The notes under the pieces were generated by a model. That model was not told the origin of the DNA. It ran no database searches and saw only the letters and a list, made by a program, of their open reading frames with translations. The position numbers and the translations under genes are program-made. From a bacterium (GTDB taxonomy: Bacteria > UBP7 > UBA6624), in NCBI GenBank assembly GCA_002716355.1, contig PBAU01000006.1, forward strand, positions 33,678-38,859: DNA of 5,182 nucleotides, written 5' to 3'. Within the stretch, counting starts at the first letter, position 1. Each line of letters opens with the position of its first letter. Positions 183 to 5,182 of the stretch are shown here, one piece after another.

Positions 183-1070
183 TTAACCAGATGGACCAAA
201 TCCTCTACCCATTGTTCCATCACCAGAATCACCTCCACCAGTAGGCTGGTTGTTTCCACCAGAAGCATCTGGAATATAAGAACGTGGATCCTGATTGGGG
301 GTTCCATCTTCTGAAAGATAATAAGCAGAACCCTCAATCACTGCTGCTTCCCATGTACCAACAGGTCTTATTGTGAAACCAGAGCTACCGGTTTGGTAAA
401 AAGATAATGCCAACTGATACGCACCAAGGAAATACTCTCCTTCTCTGTTTAGTATAGAAGGGAGACGTTGAACCTTGTCATATGTTCCAGCTGCTACCAT
501 CACAAATGGCAATTTATTTATAAGCATGTTTCCTTCAATACGCGGACCCACACTTCCAAAATTGTAACTACCAGGACCAAACACCTCAGTTACCCTAGGT
601 ATAGGCCATTGGTCTGGAATCTCCTCCCTTCCTTTCTCTTCCCATTCAACTGAAAGAAGCTGACATGATAAACCTGTTATTTGACACGCTGTATTAATAG
701 CACCAAAAAAATTGTCTTGGATATCCCAATTATCTTTAAAGAACATCGGCAAAGCTTCTTGCCATTTTTCTTCATAAACATCATTCAGGTCAATAAGCTC
801 ATGGACCTCATTACTTTTTTGTTTCATTTCTCCAGTTCTTTGTCTTTCACTTGTTATATTGCTTTCTATTGTGGTTATTTCATCAACTTTTGGTTTCTTC
901 ATGCCAGATTCAAAATAATACCAGGCACCACCAACCAACATGATTGTCAATACAACAAGTCCTATATACTTACCTTCTTTATTCTTCCTTGATTCTTGGG
1001 TTGATGGGCCAGCTTCAATCTGAACACCCCCAACAACCTTAGGTCCTTCATCTTTTTTCTTAAAAAACAT
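183..1070 (-). CDS. pilO: PilO-like type IV pilus inner-membrane alignment protein with a Gly-rich C-terminal tail
   Basis: 295 aa. The layout is a short cytoplasmic N-terminus, one TM helix (YIGLVVLTIMLVGGAWYYF), a charged probably coiled-coil stretch (KVDEITTIESNITSERQRTGEMKQKSNEVHEL), then a PilO-type pattern. That pattern is ALPMFF..NFFGAINTACQITGLSCQLLSVE followed by LPFVMVAAGTYDKVQRLPSIL (compare the 'lP...ll..i...a...gl' and 'elPi.i.v.G.Y..l..f' blocks of PilO). It sits immediately after the PilN-like gene and its ATG overlaps the upstream stop (TAATG). The assignment rests on architecture and synteny, not on a search. Confidence 0.55.
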   Translation of the reverse strand: MFFKKKDEGPKVVGGVQIEAGPSTQESRKNKEGKYIGLVVLTIMLVGGAWYYFESGMKKPKVDEITTIESNITSERQRTGEMKQKSNEVHELIDLNDVYEEKWQEALPMFFKDNWDIQDNFFGAINTACQITGLSCQLLSVEWEEKGREEIPDQWPIPRVTEVFGPGSYNFGSVGPRIEGNMLINKLPFVMVAAGTYDKVQRLPSILNREGEYFLGAYQLALSFYQTGSSGFTIRPVGTWEAAVIEGSAYYLSEDGTPNQDPRSYIPDASGGNNQPTGGGDSGDGTMGRGFGPSG

Positions 1071-2005
1071 TACTGACCTCCAACTCCCATGCCCATACCC
1101 ATGCCACCAGGCATTCCTCCAGAAGGTGGTGGTGCGTTACCACCAGCAACATCACCTCGACCCATAGCTGCCTCAAGCTGATTTTGAATAGCCTGACTGT
1201 CCATAAGTTCAGCACTTATGTCAAACTGCATCTCAAAATTGTATAAAAAAGTAACATCTGGCTTAGCTTCAAAATAAGCAGTTAGCTGTTGAAGAGCACC
1301 GCCAGCAGAACCTGCTTGTTGTTGAGCGACAAAATTAGGATCAACATCAACAGCGTAAGACCAAGAAAATTTTAAAGTTCCTGGGTTGAAAAACTTACTC
1401 GCTTGAATTGCTTTAGCAAACTTGTATATATCCTCTTCTGTTATGGATTGACCAAAGATAGAAACATTTGTCATATCTTCAACTGTGATACCAACAGGGT
1501 TGTTGCCATTTCCAGCTCTTTGAGAGAGCCAAACATTCTTTGGTATCAAAGTTCTAATTTCATCAAGTAAAACTTCCCAAGGAAATTGAGTTGCACCAAG
1601 CAAGGTAACAGCGTAAACTTTAGGTCTCATAGTGTTGTATGTTGTCTTTTCAGAATCAAATAATGTTGCATCTTGTTGATATGAATAGGATCTTGAGCAT
1701 TTCCCAACAGAGGGGGGGTTGGTTTCTGTACCATCCCACTCACCAGACATAGTGTCACAAACAACCTTTAAAACATCTGGGCTTGTGTTTGCATTCCAGG
1801 TTCTAGGTGCTGTTTGCTCTCTTTTAACACTTTGCAATTCTTGATTCTTTTTATCAATTTGCTGATCTAAATCTTTCAAAATTGTAAAACCATAATAAGC
1901 TCCACAAAAAGCCAAAACTGTAACCCATTTAATAATAGATACAGAAGTTTTTTTAACGGTAAACTCACGTGGTAATAGATTAAATACTTTTAATTGCTTT
2001 GACAT
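1070..2005 (-). CDS. pilN: PilN-like type IV pilus inner-membrane alignment protein, unusually long, with a Gly/Met-rich C-terminal tail
   Basis: 311 aa. The N-terminus MSKQLKVFNLLPREF carries the conserved (I/V)NLLP motif, the PilM-binding peptide of PilN. It is followed by one TM helix (IIKWVTVLAFCGAYYGFTIL) and a coiled-coil-like stretch (KDLDQQIDKKNQELQSVKRE). The PilN core pattern WEVLLDEIRTLIPKNVWLSQ...VSIFGQSITEEDIYKFAKAIQASKFF comes next. The gene lies directly downstream of the PilM-like gene, separated by 3 nt. Confidence 0.75.
   Translation of the reverse strand: MSKQLKVFNLLPREFTVKKTSVSIIKWVTVLAFCGAYYGFTILKDLDQQIDKKNQELQSVKREQTAPRTWNANTSPDVLKVVCDTMSGEWDGTETNPPSVGKCSRSYSYQQDATLFDSEKTTYNTMRPKVYAVTLLGATQFPWEVLLDEIRTLIPKNVWLSQRAGNGNNPVGITVEDMTNVSIFGQSITEEDIYKFAKAIQASKFFNPGTLKFSWSYAVDVDPNFVAQQQAGSAGGALQQLTAYFEAKPDVTFLYNFEMQFDISAELMDSQAIQNQLEAAMGRGDVAGGNAPPPSGGMPGGMGMGMGVGGQ
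1077..1081 (-). promoter_or_regulatory. Shine-Dalgarno site (GGAGG) for the PilO-like gene, embedded in the last codons of the PilN-like gene
   Basis: The minus strand reads GGAGGTCAGTAATG. GGAGG lies 6 nt before the ATG at 1070, and the start and stop codons share one nucleotide, which suggests translational coupling. Confidence 0.6.
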
Positions 2006-2008
2006 AAC

Positions 2009-3400
2009 CTATAAAGCCTCCGTCGCTAAAGAAACAGCAGTTGCAATTTCATATACAGCGCCTCTCATTTTGTCAGGAAACCATTCCGTTGATCCGTAAT
2101 CTATATTCTCTAACGGATCTCCTAAAACTACATCCAAACCACTTTTTTCACTTAGGTAAGCATCAATATTATTGAATCTTCTTATGTTTCCTATCAAAAC
2201 AACCCTACCCAATCTCTCTCTGCTTCTAGACCATGATTCAAAATATCTTTTACTAGAATCTATATCTGAAGCAAAATTATCAAAAACTTTTCGCAAAGCA
2301 TTGTTGACATCAGCCGAAGAAGGCAAATTCGAATCATCATCAAGAGGATCTTCAGTCTTTTCATCAGTTCCGAAAGAAGCAAAAGGGTCATTCTCTTGTG
2401 AATCATCTTCAGTTTCTGAAGAAGTGGAGTCAAGTAAATCTATATCTGTCATTCTAAAAATTTCTGGAAGGTCTTTTACAGAATTACCATCAGGTAACTG
2501 ATCTGCGAAATCTCGAATCACCTTTTCATAACCAAACTCAATAGTTCTTGACAGTCTTCCCGGAGTCAGTGGCAAAGATTTTGCTTTCTTCTTCTTTTTA
2601 GAGCCTTCATCGATATCCATATCTAAATCATCATTAGAGCCAGAAACAAAAAGTATATCAGTTATAGCATTTCTTAAATCAACTATAGCAACGGACTGAG
2701 AATAGTCTTCAAAATATCTAGAGAGCACACTTGTTGCTGACAAAAAACCAACCTTAACACCAACAGGATCCATATTGAGCTGCTGTAAAGCCATAAGGAT
2801 TGGATCAAGAATGGAATATCTTGTTGCAACAATCATCACCTCTTGTTTTTCTATTTCATCTTCAAGTATATCCCTTAAAGTTTCATATTTGAATAAGGTG
2901 TCTTCTGGTGGGAATGGAACGTATTGGCCAAGTTGTACATTGATAGTTTCTTTAAGTTGAGCTTTTGTTAATCTAGGCAACCTAACAACCCTAACAACAG
3001 AGTTGGTTCCAGATAGCCCGACAACAGCCTTTTGACCATTTATACCAGCGTCTTCCAAACCTTTTTTGAGAATCTCTAAGAATTTAGCTTGATCTTGGAT
3101 CCTTCCCATTTTCCAAACACTGCCATCCATGGGTATAAATGCTGCCCTTTCCAAAATCATCTCTTTTTTCTTTTTAGTCATTTGGACAACCCTGATTGAG
3201 TTATCCTGAAAATCAAAACCAACAACAGACTTCTTGTTGACTTTCGTCTTTTTGGGTTTTGCTACTTTTTTTGCTTCACCTTTTTTGTTAGGTTTATTTT
3301 TTGCAAACTTTGCAAAAAGACCGCCCTTTTTCGGTAAAGCCTTAGTTTTCGAATCACTTGATGATTCTTTCTTTTTGTTTTTTAAGAACTTAAATGCCAT
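2009..3400 (-). CDS. pilM: PilM-like actin/HSP70-fold type IV pilus assembly protein with a Lys-rich N-terminal extension and an acidic insertion
   Basis: 463 aa. After a basic leader of about 58 aa, the sequence follows the PilM pattern. The blocks are VVGFDFQDNSIRVVQM (strand 1 of the actin fold), AVVGLSGTNSVVRVVRLPRLTKAQLKETINVQLGQYVPFPPEDTLF ('lp...v..r.i.lP.m...el..ai..ea..yiPf...e..ld'), VAIVDLRNAITDILFV (the phosphate-2-like strand) and VVLIGNIRRFNNIDAYLSEKSGLDVVLGDPLENI. The adjacent downstream gene carries the NLLP PilM-binding peptide. The ATG at 3400 is the only start-like codon upstream of the first fold element. Confidence 0.8.
   Translation of the reverse strand: MAFKFLKNKKKESSSDSKTKALPKKGGLFAKFAKNKPNKKGEAKKVAKPKKTKVNKKSVVGFDFQDNSIRVVQMTKKKKEMILERAAFIPMDGSVWKMGRIQDQAKFLEILKKGLEDAGINGQKAVVGLSGTNSVVRVVRLPRLTKAQLKETINVQLGQYVPFPPEDTLFKYETLRDILEDEIEKQEVMIVATRYSILDPILMALQQLNMDPVGVKVGFLSATSVLSRYFEDYSQSVAIVDLRNAITDILFVSGSNDDLDMDIDEGSKKKKKAKSLPLTPGRLSRTIEFGYEKVIRDFADQLPDGNSVKDLPEIFRMTDIDLLDSTSSETEDDSQENDPFASFGTDEKTEDPLDDDSNLPSSADVNNALRKVFDNFASDIDSSKRYFESWSRSRERLGRVVLIGNIRRFNNIDAYLSEKSGLDVVLGDPLENIDYGSTEWFPDKMRGAVYEIATAVSLATEAL
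2017..2021 (-). promoter_or_regulatory. Shine-Dalgarno site (GGAGG) for the PilN-like gene, inside the 3' end of the PilM-like gene
   Basis: The minus strand reads ACGGAGGCTTTATAGGTTATG. GGAGG lies 11 nt before the ATG at 2005, and the PilM-like TAG stop is at 2011..2009. Confidence 0.5.
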
Positions 3401-3404
3401 TTAT

Positions 3405-5182
3405 TTAGTTTTGACTATTAATCAACCTCACTGTAATCAAGAACAGTACTTCTTGATCTGTTGTATTTGTATCAGTTTTAGTAAATAATTTTCCTAAGAT
3501 TGGAACATCACCAAGCCAAGGGAATTTGTTAATTGAAGTAGCAACATTCTCTCTTGAAAGACCACCTAGAACCAACGTCTCTCCATCTTTCAAAACAACA
3601 AGAGTTTGAACTGAGTTATTTGCAGTAGCAGGAACACTGCTGCCTGATTGTCCTGGAACAGTTATAAAACCTGTTATTTCAGAAAATGATGGTGACAAGA
3701 GTAATGTAACCCTCCCTTCATCATCAATGTTAGGAGTCAATTGCAACTGGACACCTGTATCAACCGTGTTAACGTCTGTATTTTCAGTAACCGTAGTTCC
3801 ACCATTTCCATCAGGAATAAAAACAGTTGAGGTTGTTATGAAAGGAGTTGATTGCTGAATGTTTACAAAACAAGGAATACCATCAGAACAGACAACTCTA
3901 GGAGTTGAAAGGACCCTTCCTTGATTTTTATTCAAAGCTGCAGAAAGAGCGGCAGTGTAATCTTCTAAGTTGGTGCCATTGTTTCTTCCCAATATCGCTA
4001 AAGATACTGAAGTTCCAAATGTTAGCTGGAAACGATCCCAAACAGCTTGATTTTGAGATGGATCACTAGATAAACCGAAACTCTTTGTTATACCGTGATC
4101 AAGAGTAAACATTTGAACCTGAATATCAACCTGCCTTGGAGGTTTATCTAATTTTCGAATCATATCTTCAATAGTTTCAATAAGTTCAGGTGTACCTCTA
4201 AGGATAAGCTTGTTACCTTTAGCAGGGAATATAGTTTGGCCAGCACCGCCGCCGCCGCCTAAGCCGCCGCCGCCGCCGAAGCCGCCGCCTCCACCGCCAA
4301 GACCGCCGCCGCCGCCTAAGCCGCCGCCTCCTCCACCACCGCCTGGCAAACCACCAAACTGAGTTGGAGAATAGTCAGGTAATGTTGAAGAAAAACCGCC
4401 GAAGCCGCCGCCGCCGAAGCCGCTACCGCCGCCGCCGAAGCCGCTACCGCCGCCGCCGAAGCCGCCGCCTCCACCCATATTTCCTCCTCCCATTGGACCC
4501 ATGTAATAAGCAAAAGCGCCTGGAGCCATGTCTAACTGACCTAATATTGAAAACAATAATGTTGGATTAGCATAATCAATTTGGATAATCTTTATAACAT
4601 CTAAACCGTACTTGGTTTCTATCTCAGTTCTGTCACCAATAATAACAATCGGAACACCTGCATCACTATTTCTAACCCTGTACTCAAGGCCAGCACTTCT
4701 TACGATAGTGTCCAACGCGGTATCAAAATCAACAGGTGGCAAAGAAAGACTAATTGTTGTACCAAGAGCACCTGTAAGAGCAGTCTGGTCAAAAATTACA
4801 CCAACACCCGCTTGTAAAGCCAAGTTTCTCAAAACATCTTGGATAGGACCGGTGTAATCAATATTAACCTTTATTGGACTTATCTTGTAATCATCCTGAT
4901 CTGGTTCAGGTAATGAAAAATCTTCCCAATCTTCATCAAGTTCAATTTCATCTTCTTCAATAAGCTCATCTTCTGTTGCTTCCTCTTCTTCCAAAAGAGC
5001 CTCTTCCTCAGCAGCTATTCGAGCAGCTTCCTCTTCAGCAGCGATCCTTGCAGCTTCCTCTTCAGCAGCGATCCTTGCAGCTTCCTCTTCAGCAGCGATC
5101 CTTGCAGCCTCTTCCTCAGCAGCTATTCGAGCAGCCTCTTCCTCAGCAGCGATCCTTGCAGCCTCTTCCTCAGCAGCTATTC
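3405..5182 (-). CDS. pilQ: PilQ-like outer-membrane secretin, 5'-partial. The ORF-track start at 4994 is an in-frame TTG (Leu), and the frame stays open to the window edge.
   Basis: The C-terminal about 240 aa (roughly 3420..4133) form an unmistakable secretin core: RVLSTPRVV...VQLQLTPNIDDEGRVTLLLSP..ETLVLGGL....INKFPWLGDVPILGKLF....TDQEVLFLITVRLIN. Upstream is an N0/STN-like domain (about 4620..4883): IKVNIDYTGPIQDVLRNLALQAGVGVIFDQ...ISLSLPPVDFDTALDTIVRSAGLEY. A Secretin_N-type domain follows (VIKIIQIDYANPTLLFSILGQL ... NKLILRGTPELIETIEDMIRKLDKPPRQVDIQVQMF) and is split by a Gly-rich insertion. The called N-terminus MEEEEATEDE has no signal peptide, which a secretin needs. The same frame reads through 4995..5182 with no stop. 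Confidence 0.9.
   Translation of the reverse strand, partial: IAAEEEAARIAAEEEAARIAAEEEAARIAAEEEAARIAAEEEAARIAAEEEAARIAAEEEALLEEEEATEDELIEEDEIELDEDWEDFSLPEPDQDDYKISPIKVNIDYTGPIQDVLRNLALQAGVGVIFDQTALTGALGTTISLSLPPVDFDTALDTIVRSAGLEYRVRNSDAGVPIVIIGDRTEIETKYGLDVIKIIQIDYANPTLLFSILGQLDMAPGAFAYYMGPMGGGNMGGGGGFGGGGSGFGGGGSGFGGGGFGGFSSTLPDYSPTQFGGLPGGGGGGGGLGGGGGLGGGGGGFGGGGGLGGGGGAGQTIFPAKGNKLILRGTPELIETIEDMIRKLDKPPRQVDIQVQMFTLDHGITKSFGLSSDPSQNQAVWDRFQLTFGTSVSLAILGRNNGTNLEDYTAALSAALNKNQGRVLSTPRVVCSDGIPCFVNIQQSTPFITTSTVFIPDGNGGTTVTENTDVNTVDTGVQLQLTPNIDDEGRVTLLLSPSFSEITGFITVPGQSGSSVPATANNSVQTLVVLKDGETLVLGGLSRENVATSINKFPWLGDVPILGKLFTKTDTNTTDQEVLFLITVRLINSQN
4239..4499 (-). repeat. GC-rich (GGC)n-type coding low-complexity tract encoding an 87-aa Gly/Phe/Leu-rich segment of the secretin
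   Basis: It encodes GPMGGGNMGGGGGFGGGGSGFGGGGSGFGGGGFGGF-SSTLPDYSPTQF-GGLPGGGGGGGGLGGGGGLGGGGGGFGGGGGLGGGGGAG. By my count 57 of 87 residues are Gly. It contains a perfect 21-nt direct duplication, gaagccgctaccgccgccgcc, at 4416..4436 and 4437..4457. Confidence 0.9.
4999..5182 (-). repeat. 27-bp tandem repeat, 6 full units plus one partial, cut by the window edge. It is in frame and encodes the nonapeptide AARIAAEEE.
   Basis: Units lie at 4999-5025, 5026-5052, 5053-5079, 5080-5106, 5107-5133 and 5134-5160, with a partial unit at 5161-5182. There are two main sequence types, gcctcttcctcagcagctattcgagca and gcttcctcttcagcagcgatccttgca, plus one chimeric unit. The period is a multiple of 3 and every unit translates to the same peptide. 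Confidence 0.9.

What the first reader, a model, noticed from the sequence alone, without database searches (positions are those of the whole stretch)
4239..4499. An 87-residue Gly/Phe-rich disordered module inserted inside the periplasmic N-domain of a secretin
The conserved halves of one Secretin_N-type domain are separated by 87 residues, 57 of them Gly. The halves are 'VIKIIQIDYANPTLLFSILGQL' and 'NKLILRGTPELIETIEDMIRKLDKPPRQV'. The insertion forms two blocks, (GGGGF / GGGGSGF)n and (GGGGGL)n, around a short Pro/Ser/Tyr spacer. In characterised secretins (GspD, PilQ, InvG families) this position holds a short variable loop, so this is a large expansion of a loop rather than an inter-domain linker. 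Secretins assemble as rings of 12 or more subunits, so the periplasmic vestibule or its outer surface would carry a dense crown of flexible GGF/GGL chains. The composition recalls FG-type or glycine-loop cohesive disordered regions. One speculative idea is a gel-like filter or seal around the pilus, or a flexible tether to peptidoglycan. I know of no described secretin with such a module, but I cannot search to confirm that.
Basis: partly seen in the sequence, partly recalled or inferred. Interest (0 to 1): 0.7.

Follow-up and report, generated by a model that had tools for sequence, protein, structure and literature searches.

The report
Glycine-rich loop inside a pilus secretin
An 87-residue, two-thirds-glycine floppy loop really is inserted inside the last periplasmic domain of an outer-membrane pilus channel, but it sits at a loop already known to vary and similar loops are common in related uncultured-bacterial secretins, so it is an unstudied family trait, not a one-off.

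Summary
Window 4239-4499 (minus strand) encodes 87 residues, 57 of them Gly, arranged as Gly block, 12-residue Pro/Ser/Tyr spacer, Gly block. The tract lies inside a PilQ-type secretin in a pilM/pilN operon.

It splits one N3-type domain and is not an inter-domain linker. A tract-deleted family profile aligns in a single stretch to the N3 domains of solved GspD and PilQ structures. Two AlphaFold2 models place ordered elements on both sides of an 86-residue disordered stretch.

It is real and under selection. Five distinct assemblies, 81-97% identical in flanking DNA, keep it at 83-88 residues, and synonymous changes outnumber non-synonymous ones.

This position is the published "variable insertion" of N3 (51 residues in InvG, disordered loops in MxiD and PulD). 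Gly-rich loops of 40-140 residues occur here in 25 of the 63 nearest secretin clusters, some annotated GspD. Typical proteobacterial PilQ/GspD lack them.

No paper I could search describes the trait. Its function is inferred: most likely a flexible collar at the N3 ring under the gate, possibly working with the Gly-rich tails of the PilN/O/P-like partner proteins.

The parts
3405..5182 (-). Secretin gene of PilQ type. Its N-terminus runs off the window; 591 residues are visible. The full N-terminus, with a signal peptide, is seen in P0004.
4998..5182 (-). 27-nt tandem repeat encoding (AARIAAEEE)n, a Glu/Ala/Arg-rich helical spacer in the N-terminal part of the secretin.
   Evidence: The same repeats separate STN-like domains in relative L059.
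4611..4871 (-). N0/STN-like domain (residues about 104-190).
   Evidence: AF2 gives an ordered alpha/beta domain with pLDDT 72-91. Pfam STN is weak, E 0.008-0.011, below its cut-off. Foldseek finds DotD-like matches.
4500..4598 (-). N-terminal half of the N3-type domain (residues 195-227): strand 1 VIKIIQI, helix 1 PTLLFSILGQ, and the conserved aromatic strand AFAYY.
   Evidence: AF2 elements E101-107, H112-121 and E128-132 (model numbering plus 94). The profile aligns to GspD and PilQ N3.
4392..4499 (-). Gly block 1 (residues 228-263), made of GGGGF and GGGGSGF units. It contains the perfect 21-nt repeat.
   Evidence: pLDDT is about 30-35.
4356..4391 (-). Spacer SSTLPDYSPTQF (residues 264-275), ending in a P-x-Q motif.
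   Evidence: The spacer is identical in all close relatives. The P-x-Q motif just before block 2 is kept in 11 of 14 spacer-bearing family members, including members 30-48% identical.
4239..4355 (-). Gly block 2 (residues 276-314), made of GGGGGL and GGGGGF units, with an 18-nt repeat.
4128..4238 (-). C-terminal half of the N3-type domain (residues 315-351): QTIFPAKG (strand 2 by homology), NKLILRG (strand 3), helix 2, then LDKPPRQV.
   Evidence: Pfam Secretin_N at 30.3 bits, profile positions 25-69. AF2 elements E229-235 and H237-250. PDB alignments.
3420..3932 (-). Secretin beta-barrel domain, PF00263 (residues 417-587).
   Evidence: E 2.3e-37.
2009..3400 (-). PilM-like ATPase-fold protein (463 aa) with an acidic low-complexity insertion.
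   Evidence: Pfam PilM_2 at 75.3 bits and TIGR01175.
1070..2005 (-). PilN-like protein (311 aa) with a Gly/Met-rich C-terminal tail ...GGMPGGMGMGMGVGGQ.
   Evidence: Pfam PilN at 20.6 bits, just below its cut-off. Tail.
183..1070 (-). 295-aa membrane-anchored protein with no family match, probably a PilO/PilP analogue. It has a Gly-rich C-terminal tail ...GGGDSGDGTMGRGFGPSG.

Best explanation
The tract is a clade-typical glycine-rich expansion of the known variable loop of the secretin N3 (ring-building) domain, in a PilQ-type secretin of a type IV pilus-like machine from an unclassified marine bacterium. Shown: it lies inside one domain, it is predicted disordered, it is conserved in length and architecture, and it is under purifying selection. 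Replication slippage on GGC-rich repeats supplies the small length changes, and selection holds the loop at about 85 residues. Its layout is two flexible Gly arms of roughly 36-39 residues around a short conserved Pro/Ser/Tyr...P-x-Q motif. Inferred: N3 forms the ring directly under the periplasmic gate, and the base of this loop lies at the published 'N3 constriction'. The 12-15 copies in an assembled secretin would therefore form a dense, compliant collar of about 1,000-1,300 disordered residues at or just below that ring. I think it most likely acts as a soft gasket or curtain around the pilus, and as a fuzzy contact zone with the Gly-rich C-terminal tails of the PilN/O/P-like partners encoded next to it. 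My confidence in the identity part is about 0.9 and in the functional part about 0.3.
For: One domain: a tract-deleted family profile aligns in one stretch (positions 5-93 of 95) to ETEC GspD N3 residues 236-333, and likewise to Vibrio, Neisseria and Pseudomonas PilQ N3, with the deletion junction in the helix 1 to strand 2 loop. All 12 tract-deleted family members hit Pfam Secretin_N. Two AF2 models give strand-helix-strand, then 86 residues at pLDDT about 30-35, then strand-helix. Selection: tract length is 83-88 residues in five distinct assemblies whose flanking DNA is 81-97% identical. Against L002 the tract shows 26 synonymous and 10 non-synonymous codon differences. Clade trait: the best hits P0069-P0081 (30-48% identity) mostly share the two-block-plus-spacer layout, 83-141 residues with the same flanks; P0071 has a single shorter block. 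Orthology of P0069 is supported by conserved synteny. In the unbiased subset, 25 of 63 clusters have a Gly-rich span of at least 40 residues. Of 14 close Armatimonadota-type relatives, 9 have 51-75 residue loops, including two in complete long-read chromosomes with pilM...Q-aroK-aroB synteny. Position and geometry come from papers on InvG, MxiD, PulD and BfpB. Partner tails: Gly-rich segments in these loci are confined to the secretin loop and the tails of the periplasmic PilN/O/P-like proteins. They are absent from PilM, the pseudopilins and the housekeeping genes.
Against: No structure or experiment bears on the function. AF2 and profile homology disagree on the exact insertion point. AF2 makes AFAYY a strand and puts the tract before strand 3; homology puts it between helix 1 and strand 2. 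In needle-containing InvG the equivalent loop threads outward between N3 and N1 and does not fill the lumen, so a lumen-facing collar is not assured. The non-Gly residues differ widely between homologues (A, L, S, F, Q, Y, N, R), so no single chemistry is conserved. Some close Armatimonadota relatives have no Gly loop at all, so it is dispensable for secretin function as such. Partner tails are also Gly-rich in two loci whose secretin lacks the loop, so the co-occurrence does not discriminate.
Confidence: 0.5

Rival explanations
1. Tethered docking motif. The Gly blocks are only flexible arms. The functional element is the central spacer (...Y-x-P-x-Q...), which becomes ordered on assembly and docks between N-domain rings or onto a partner, as part of the InvG variable loop does.
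For: The spacer is identical in all close relatives while the Gly blocks carry the indels. A P-x-Q motif just before block 2 is kept in 11 of 14 spacer-bearing family members, including members 30-48% identical. In InvG, residues 217-227 and 252-267 of the equivalent loop become ordered and stabilise the N-domain rings (PMC6155069).
Against: AF2 with a family-specific alignment gives pLDDT about 34 across the spacer, with only a 3-residue helix at PTQ. The Armatimonadota-type relatives have a single Gly block with no spacer, so the spacer cannot explain the wider trait.
Confidence: 0.2
2. Tolerated low-complexity insertion. Slippage on GGC repeats inflated a permissive surface loop. The loop must only stay flexible and soluble and has no specific role.
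For: There are perfect 21-nt and 18-nt DNA repeats, and GGC codon use differs from the rest of the gene. This loop hosts unrelated Ser-, Thr-, Gln- or Ala-rich insertions of 40-130 residues in other secretins. Some close relatives lack the loop entirely. Selection is weaker than in the barrel, where the synonymous to non-synonymous counts are 110:9 against 26:10 in the tract.
Against: Length stays at 83-88 residues across species-level divergence. The two-block architecture persists down to about 30% identity. Gly richness recurs in the partner proteins of the same machine but not in other genes of the loci.
Confidence: 0.17
3. Cohesive gel barrier of the FG-nucleoporin or LARKS type. The Gly/Phe repeats from 12-15 subunits, plus the partner tails, cross-link reversibly into a selective plug in the vestibule.
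For: The window tract has 7 Phe in GGGGF units. Phe is the second commonest non-Gly residue over 86 homologous tracts, and Tyr and Trp also occur. My own rough estimate (an inference, not a tool result): about 1,200 residues at about 75 cubic angstroms each would equal a solid plug about 30 angstroms thick in a lumen 60-70 angstroms wide (diameters).
Against: An aromatic residue is the dominant non-Gly residue in only 17 of 86 homologues. Many tracts use A, S, T, N, Q or R. Lumen orientation is unproven. There are no hydrophilic spacers of the FG-nucleoporin kind.
Confidence: 0.1
4. The tract is an assembly artefact, or an ordinary linker between two domains.
For: Short-read contigs break or collapse in the tract: L007 and L008 start inside it, L059 has Ns plus poly-G, and L001 is collapsed to 20 residues. 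One near-identical contig carries an in-frame TGA inside it.
Against: Five distinct assemblies agree on architecture and length. Synonymous divergence inside the tract shows real coding evolution. Long-read chromosomes of relatives carry such loops. Both flanks belong to a single N3 domain.
Confidence: 0.03

Closest known systems
Variable insertion of the N3 domain of type III secretins (InvG residues 217-267; MxiD N231-S258)
   Same: It lies inside the N3 ring-building domain, between helix 1 and strand 2 by profile alignment. It is not conserved in sequence between families and is largely disordered in isolated secretins (PMC6155069, PMC7058355).
   Different: The window loop is about twice as long (87-106 against 28-51 residues) and 65% Gly with internal repeats. 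Its composition and length are conserved within its own clade. It belongs to a PilQ-type system, not a type III system.
N3 loop and 'N3 constriction' of type II secretins (PulD loop 288-303, XcpQ GGQGGEQTGGG loop, ETEC GspD)
   Same: Homologous domain, and the same loop as judged from the alignments. XcpQ's short Gly-rich loop aligns with the end of the tract. The loop is unresolved in cryo-EM maps.
   Different: Those loops are 16-25 residues with no repeat architecture. GspD proteins have N1-N2-N3 domains, whereas this protein has a single Secretin_N-type domain.
BfpB (type IVb secretin) Ser-rich N3 hairpin, K214-D253
   Same: An enlarged, compositionally biased N3 extension under the gate. 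The authors propose that it forms a 'curtain-like structure' and a hydrophilic environment for the moving pilus (PMC12114550).
   Different: The BfpB element is an ordered beta-hairpin about 40 residues long and rich in Ser, not a disordered Gly-rich loop.
Uncharacterised Gly-loop secretins of uncultured lineages (P0069 cluster, 'type II secretion system protein GspD [bacterium JZ-2024 1]') and Armatimonadota PilQ (P0262, P0273, P0274)
   Same: The same domain position, Gly-rich loops of 50-140 residues, and in the P0069-P0081 group the same flanks, with the two-block-plus-spacer layout in all but P0071. Operon synteny is shared with the P0069 lineage.
   Different: The non-Gly residues differ (Y, S, T, N, Q, R, M, L). 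The Armatimonadota versions are single-block. None has been studied experimentally.
FG-nucleoporin repeats and Gly-rich low-complexity domains (GLFG nucleoporins, FUS/hnRNPA1-type GFGGGG segments). This comparison rests on my own knowledge.
   Same: Gly/aromatic repeats anchored at high local concentration around a ring.
   Different: There is no homology. The aromatic content is not conserved across the clade, and no barrier function has been shown.

Membership tests
Secretin superfamily (PF00263; GspD/PilQ/InvG) | C-terminal secretin beta-barrel domain scoring above the Pfam gathering score | tested here: met
   128.6 bits against a cut-off of 27.5, residues 417-587. phmmer hits 22 distinct PDB secretin sequences.
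Secretin superfamily (PF00263; GspD/PilQ/InvG) | N3-type (Secretin_N, beta-alpha-beta-beta-alpha) domain directly upstream of the barrel | tested here: met
   PF03958 at 30.3 bits against 28.2, C-terminal half only. The tract-deleted profile aligns end to end with GspD and PilQ N3. AF2 shows the ordered elements.
Secretin superfamily (PF00263; GspD/PilQ/InvG) | Overall fold similar to solved secretins | tested here: met
   Foldseek against PDB: VcPilQ 6w6m at E 8.9e-17, then InvG, BfpB and GspD.
Secretin superfamily (PF00263; GspD/PilQ/InvG) | Assembly into a 12-17-mer outer-membrane ring | not testable with these tools
   No multimer prediction or experiment was available.
Type IVa pilus secretin PilQ | NCBIfam TIGR02515 score above its curated cut-off | tested here: not met
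   132.9 bits against a cut-off of 284.35. The protein is PilQ-like in context but is a divergent subfamily.
Type IVa pilus secretin PilQ | N-terminal AMIN domain(s) | tested here: inconclusive
   No Pfam hit in the N-terminal part P0004, but the syntenic orthologue P0069 has AMIN at 27.5 bits against 20.5.
Type IVa pilus secretin PilQ | Encoded with pilM/pilN-type alignment genes and prepilin-like (N_methyl) genes | tested here: met
   PilM_2 at 75.3 bits and a weak PilN hit. N_methyl proteins and a prepilin peptidase lie upstream. Gene order differs from the classical arrangement: the secretin precedes pilM.
Type II secretion secretin GspD | TIGR02517 score above cut-off and an N1-N2-N3 array of Secretin_N domains | tested here: not met
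   131 bits against 351.35. Only one Secretin_N-type domain is present.
Known N3 variable insertion (as in InvG/MxiD/PulD) | Located within N3 between helix 1 and strand 2 | tested here: inconclusive
   Profile alignment puts the junction in that loop, with lPtAK as strand 2. AF2 instead makes the preceding AFAYY a strand, so the tract would sit before strand 3. Either way it is inside N3.
Known N3 variable insertion (as in InvG/MxiD/PulD) | Disordered or unresolved in the isolated subunit | tested here: met
   pLDDT about 30-38 over model residues 136-224 in both AF2 runs.
FG-nucleoporin-like cohesive barrier | Conserved aromatic-Gly repeat motifs across homologues | tested here: not met
   An aromatic residue is the dominant non-Gly residue in only 17 of 86 homologous tracts.
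FG-nucleoporin-like cohesive barrier | Forms a selective permeability barrier in the channel lumen | not testable with these tools
   This needs cryo-ET or cryo-EM, leakage assays, or peptide phase-separation assays.

The most novel reading that the evidence does not exclude
The N3 loops of 12-15 subunits, together with the Gly-rich C-terminal tails of the PilN/O/P-like proteins, form a conserved cohesive disordered mesh. This mesh would act as a second, soft gate or seal in the periplasmic vestibule of a pilus machine, a bacterial counterpart of the FG-nucleoporin barrier found across several uncultured phyla and Armatimonadota.
Probability: 0.1. Interest if true: 0.8.

Novelty: new variant of a known kind. 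Interest (0 to 1): 0.42.

Why it matters
Secretin structural work has treated the N3 variable loop as an unresolved, unconserved nuisance. Here a whole clade of PilQ-type secretins keeps it as an 80-140 residue Gly-rich module under length and composition constraint. The clade includes Armatimonadota with complete genomes. The neighbouring alignment-complex proteins carry matching Gly-rich tails. If the loops face the lumen, roughly 1,000-1,300 disordered residues would crowd a ring 6-7 nm wide that the pilus must pass. That would make a concrete, testable case of disordered protein acting in gating, sealing or coupling of a bacterial envelope machine. If they have no role, the finding is a clear example of slippage-prone low-complexity sequence held by selection in a permissive loop. 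It is also a practical warning that these genes are routinely broken or collapsed in short-read assemblies.

Tried and rejected
1. Deleting the tract in silico and re-running Pfam did not extend the Secretin_N match to the N-terminal half. The single-domain question was settled with a family profile against PDB sequences and with AF2.
2. I considered whether UGA codes for Gly (code 25), because L003 has an in-frame TGA inside the tract and none of the four window genes ends in TGA. I rejected this. TGA ends 2-4 of the 9-13 neighbouring genes listed in each of L001, L003 and L059 (one of the four in L003 is the in-tract TGA itself), and the window ORFs are intact under code 11.
3. I considered a natural short allele, since P0001/L001 has only 20 residues. 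I rejected this as an assembly collapse. L007 is 100% identical over the 600 nt downstream yet carries at least 36 residues of block 2.
4. A profile search of the word-indexed protein database with tract-free barrels returned only 32 hits and missed the family. It was uninformative.
5. I tested whether Gly-rich partner tails occur only where the secretin has the loop. They do not. Two loop-less Armatimonadota loci also have them, one with a (GYGGGIG)n tail on a small STN-domain protein.
6. Literature searches for a described Gly-rich secretin module found nothing. The library holds only open-access papers, so absence is not proof.
7. Rfam found no RNA family on either strand. The plus-strand poly-Pro ORF at 4210-4362 is only the mirror image of the GGC repeats.
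8. I could not identify the phylum of the window organism. The records say only 'uncultured bacterium'.
Full report
OBSERVATION. All genes in the window lie on the minus strand. The ORF ending at 3405 stays open to the window edge and gives 591 visible residues. Residues 228-314 correspond exactly to 4239-4499. They hold 57 Gly in 87 residues, against 6.5% Gly in the rest of the protein, a binomial probability of about 9e-46. The layout is block 1 (GGGGF and GGGGSGF units; 4392-4499), a 12-residue spacer SSTLPDYSPTQF (4356-4391), and block 2 (GGGGGL and GGGGGF units; 4239-4355). The DNA shows 66% GC against about 38% in the flanks. It has a perfect 21-nt repeat of 2.9 copies and an 18-nt repeat of 4.4 copies. 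Gly codon use is GGC-dominated, unlike the GGT-dominated rest of the gene. That pattern is the signature of slippage-type repeat growth. The additional DMAPGAFAYYM and QTIFPAKG segments are conserved, ordered flanks. No Rfam family matches either strand. The plus-strand poly-Pro ORF is the mirror image of the repeats.

WHAT THE GENE IS. Pfam gives Secretin (PF00263) at 128.6 bits and Secretin_N at 30.3 bits, covering only profile positions 25-69. NCBIfam places the protein closest to PilQ and GspD, but far below their curated cut-offs. Sequence searches hit 22 distinct solved secretin sequences, and the AF2 model matches VcPilQ, InvG, BfpB and GspD by Foldseek. Downstream lie a PilM-like gene, a weak PilN-like gene and a 295-aa unknown gene. 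In longer contigs of the same lineage the operon starts with a prepilin peptidase, four large N_methyl proteins and a 1,288-aa protein. A Kdo-transferase-type gene lies nearby, which fits an outer membrane containing LPS. P0004 supplies the missing N-terminus, including a signal peptide. The 48%-identical syntenic orthologue P0069 has an AMIN domain, which is a PilQ hallmark. The protein is therefore a divergent PilQ-type secretin. The records name the organism only as 'uncultured bacterium'.

IS ONE DOMAIN SPLIT? Yes. I removed the tracts from 12 family members and built a profile (A4). It aligns in one stretch (positions 5-93 of 95) to the N3 domain of ETEC GspD (5zdh residues 236-333). It aligns likewise to N3 of Vibrio PilQ (244-332), Neisseria PilQ and Pseudomonas PilQ, with the deletion junction in the helix 1 to strand 2 loop. 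All 12 tract-deleted sequences hit Secretin_N. Two AF2 runs with different alignments agree. In model numbering plus 94, they give strand 101-107, helix 112-121 and a short strand AFAYY at 128-132. Then come 86 residues at pLDDT about 30-38, then strand 229-235 and helix 237-250. The exact topological slot remains unresolved. Homology makes TIFPAK strand 2, which places the tract in the helix 1 to strand 2 loop. AF2 makes AFAYY the strand that precedes the tract.

IS IT REAL AND SELECTED? The same architecture appears in L002, L003, L004, L005 and L006, from different samples and assemblers. L004 is identical to L002 in the tract and in the 600 nt downstream, so with the window there are five distinct versions. 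Tract lengths are 87, 88, 83, 84 and 83 residues, although the downstream DNA is only 81-97% identical. Against L002 the tract has 46 identical, 26 synonymous and 10 non-synonymous codons, while the barrel has 149, 110 and 9. Selection on the tract is therefore purifying, though weaker than on the barrel. The only short version (L001/P0001, 20 residues) is an assembly collapse. L007 is 100% identical downstream but starts inside the tract with at least 36 residues of block 2. Short-read contigs often break here: L007 and L008 start in the tract, and L059 has a 10-N gap plus poly-G. L003 has an in-frame TGA in the tract. TGA is a normal stop codon in the neighbouring genes, so this is a nonsense allele or an error, not recoding.

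HOW UNUSUAL IS IT? Published structures already describe this site as variable. [quoted passage not shown] It was first thought to form a periplasmic constriction, and was later seen threading out between N3 and N1 (PMC6155069). MxiD has a non-conserved insertion at N231-S258 (PMC7058355). PulD has an unresolved loop at 288-303 and 'N3 domain constriction sites' (PMC6882859). BfpB has a Ser-rich N3 hairpin described as a curtain under the gate (PMC12114550). XcpQ's GGQGGEQTGGG loop aligns with the end of the tract. Unrelated secretins in my first search carry Ser-, Gln-, Thr- or Ala-rich insertions of 40-130 residues at this site.

An exhaustive search of 1.84 billion cluster representatives gave 32,409 secretin hits. 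Of the 147 anchored proteins among the top 150, 81 have a Gly-rich span of at least 40 residues immediately upstream of strand 3, and 20 have at least 80. The query contained the tract, which biases the ranking, so I re-scored with a tract-free query. In the subset that should be completely sampled (113 bits or more; n=63), 25 have at least 40 Gly-rich residues and 13 have at least 80. Leaving out 24 giant multidomain proteins, that is 25 of 39. The best hits P0069-P0081 (30-48% identity) share the flanks LD[LM]xP...aromatic strand on one side and [IL]PxAKxG-LIxMRG on the other, and all but P0071 (a single shorter block) have the two-block-plus-spacer layout. Of the 14 spacer-bearing sequences examined, close relatives included, 11 keep a P-x-Q motif at the spacer end. 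Some of these proteins are named GspD by NCBI or JGI.

A tract-free query from an Armatimonadota member shows the clade boundary. Nine of its 14 close relatives have 51-75 residue Gly loops, but only 3 of 57 more distant PilQ/GspD proteins have even short ones. Two carriers sit in complete 5.2-5.3 Mb long-read chromosomes with pilM...Q-aroK-aroB synteny. I found no paper describing the trait.

MECHANISM. Shown: the tract is a disordered, Gly-rich loop inside N3 with constrained length, and it is typical of its clade. Inferred: N3 rings sit just below the gate with inner diameters of about 60-70 angstroms. Twelve to fifteen loops give about 1,000-1,300 disordered residues at that level. By my own estimate that is enough for a solid plug about 30 angstroms thick, or a hydrated mesh filling the vestibule. 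I favour a compliant collar or gasket around the pilus that also contacts the partner proteins.

The reason for the partner link is the distribution of Gly-rich segments in these loci. They are confined to the secretin loop and the C-terminal tails of the PilN-like protein, the 295-aa protein and a 228-aa downstream protein. This holds again in the P0069 lineage, in L059 and in Armatimonadota. PilM, the pseudopilins and the housekeeping genes have none. That co-occurrence does not discriminate, however, because two loci whose secretin lacks the loop still have Gly-rich tails.

The rivals are these. First, an InvG-like docking role for the conserved spacer carried on flexible arms. Second, a merely tolerated slippage product. 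Third, an FG-nucleoporin-like cohesive gel, which is weakened because aromatic residues dominate in only 17 of 86 homologous tracts.

VERDICT. The claim of uniqueness is not. The tract is an extreme but clade-typical version of the known N3 variable insertion. It is abundant in databases and apparently undescribed in the literature. I rate it a new variant of a known kind, of moderate interest.

Noticed in passing
window 4998-5182 (minus strand); L059 1-2454: A 27-nt tandem repeat encodes (AARIAAEEE)n in the secretin's N-terminal region. The more distant relative L059 has many such Glu/Ala/Arg helical repeats separating repeated STN-like domains. They look like rigid single-helix spacers that lengthen the periplasmic part of the protein.
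   Followed up: partly
window 1070-1150 and 183-260 (minus strand); L001 14818-15504; L059, L060, L063, L066: The PilN-like protein, the 295-aa protein and a 228-aa downstream protein end in Gly-rich tails. The 228-aa tail reaches 21 Gly in 25 residues. The same holds in divergent lineages, whereas cytoplasmic, pseudopilin and housekeeping genes in the same loci have no such segments.
   Followed up: partly
L064 5914-6708; L065 6146-6793: In Armatimonadota loci whose secretin lacks the Gly loop, a small STN-domain protein encoded just upstream has a Gly-rich tail, (GYGGGIG)n in L064. This suggests that the Gly-rich element can be carried by different subunits of the machine.
   Followed up: no
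window 2009-3400 (minus strand), residues about 255-385: The PilM-like protein has an acidic, low-complexity insertion of about 130 residues between the two Pfam PilM_2 matches.
   Followed up: no
P0088, P0095, P0105 and about 26 others: Giant proteins of 2,000-5,500 residues with a C-terminal secretin domain are among the closest barrel homologues. None has a Gly loop.
   Followed up: no
L003 about 11600 (equivalent to window about 4335): A contig 97.5% identical to the window has an in-frame TGA (GGA to TGA) inside block 2, which splits the gene call in two. TGA is a normal stop codon in the neighbouring genes, so this is a null allele or a sequencing error.
   Followed up: yes
L001 10300-10400; L007 and L008 contig starts; L059 2560-2640: Short-read assemblies collapse or break in the tract. 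L001 has 20 residues although L007, identical downstream, has at least 36. L007 and L008 begin inside the tract. L059 has 10 Ns plus poly-G. Gene callers then start the secretin at an internal site or split it.
   Followed up: yes
window 4210-4362 and 4364-4570 (plus strand): The poly-Pro/Lys and Arg-rich ORFs on the opposite strand are mirror images of the GGC repeats and are not genes.
   Followed up: yes
L001, L003, L059, L066: Synteny is conserved down to 48% secretin identity. The order is N_methyl pseudopilins, a 1,100-1,290-aa protein with no family match, the secretin, PilM (fused to a PilN-like region in L059 and L066), small proteins, Proton_antipo_M and Wzy_C.
   Followed up: partly
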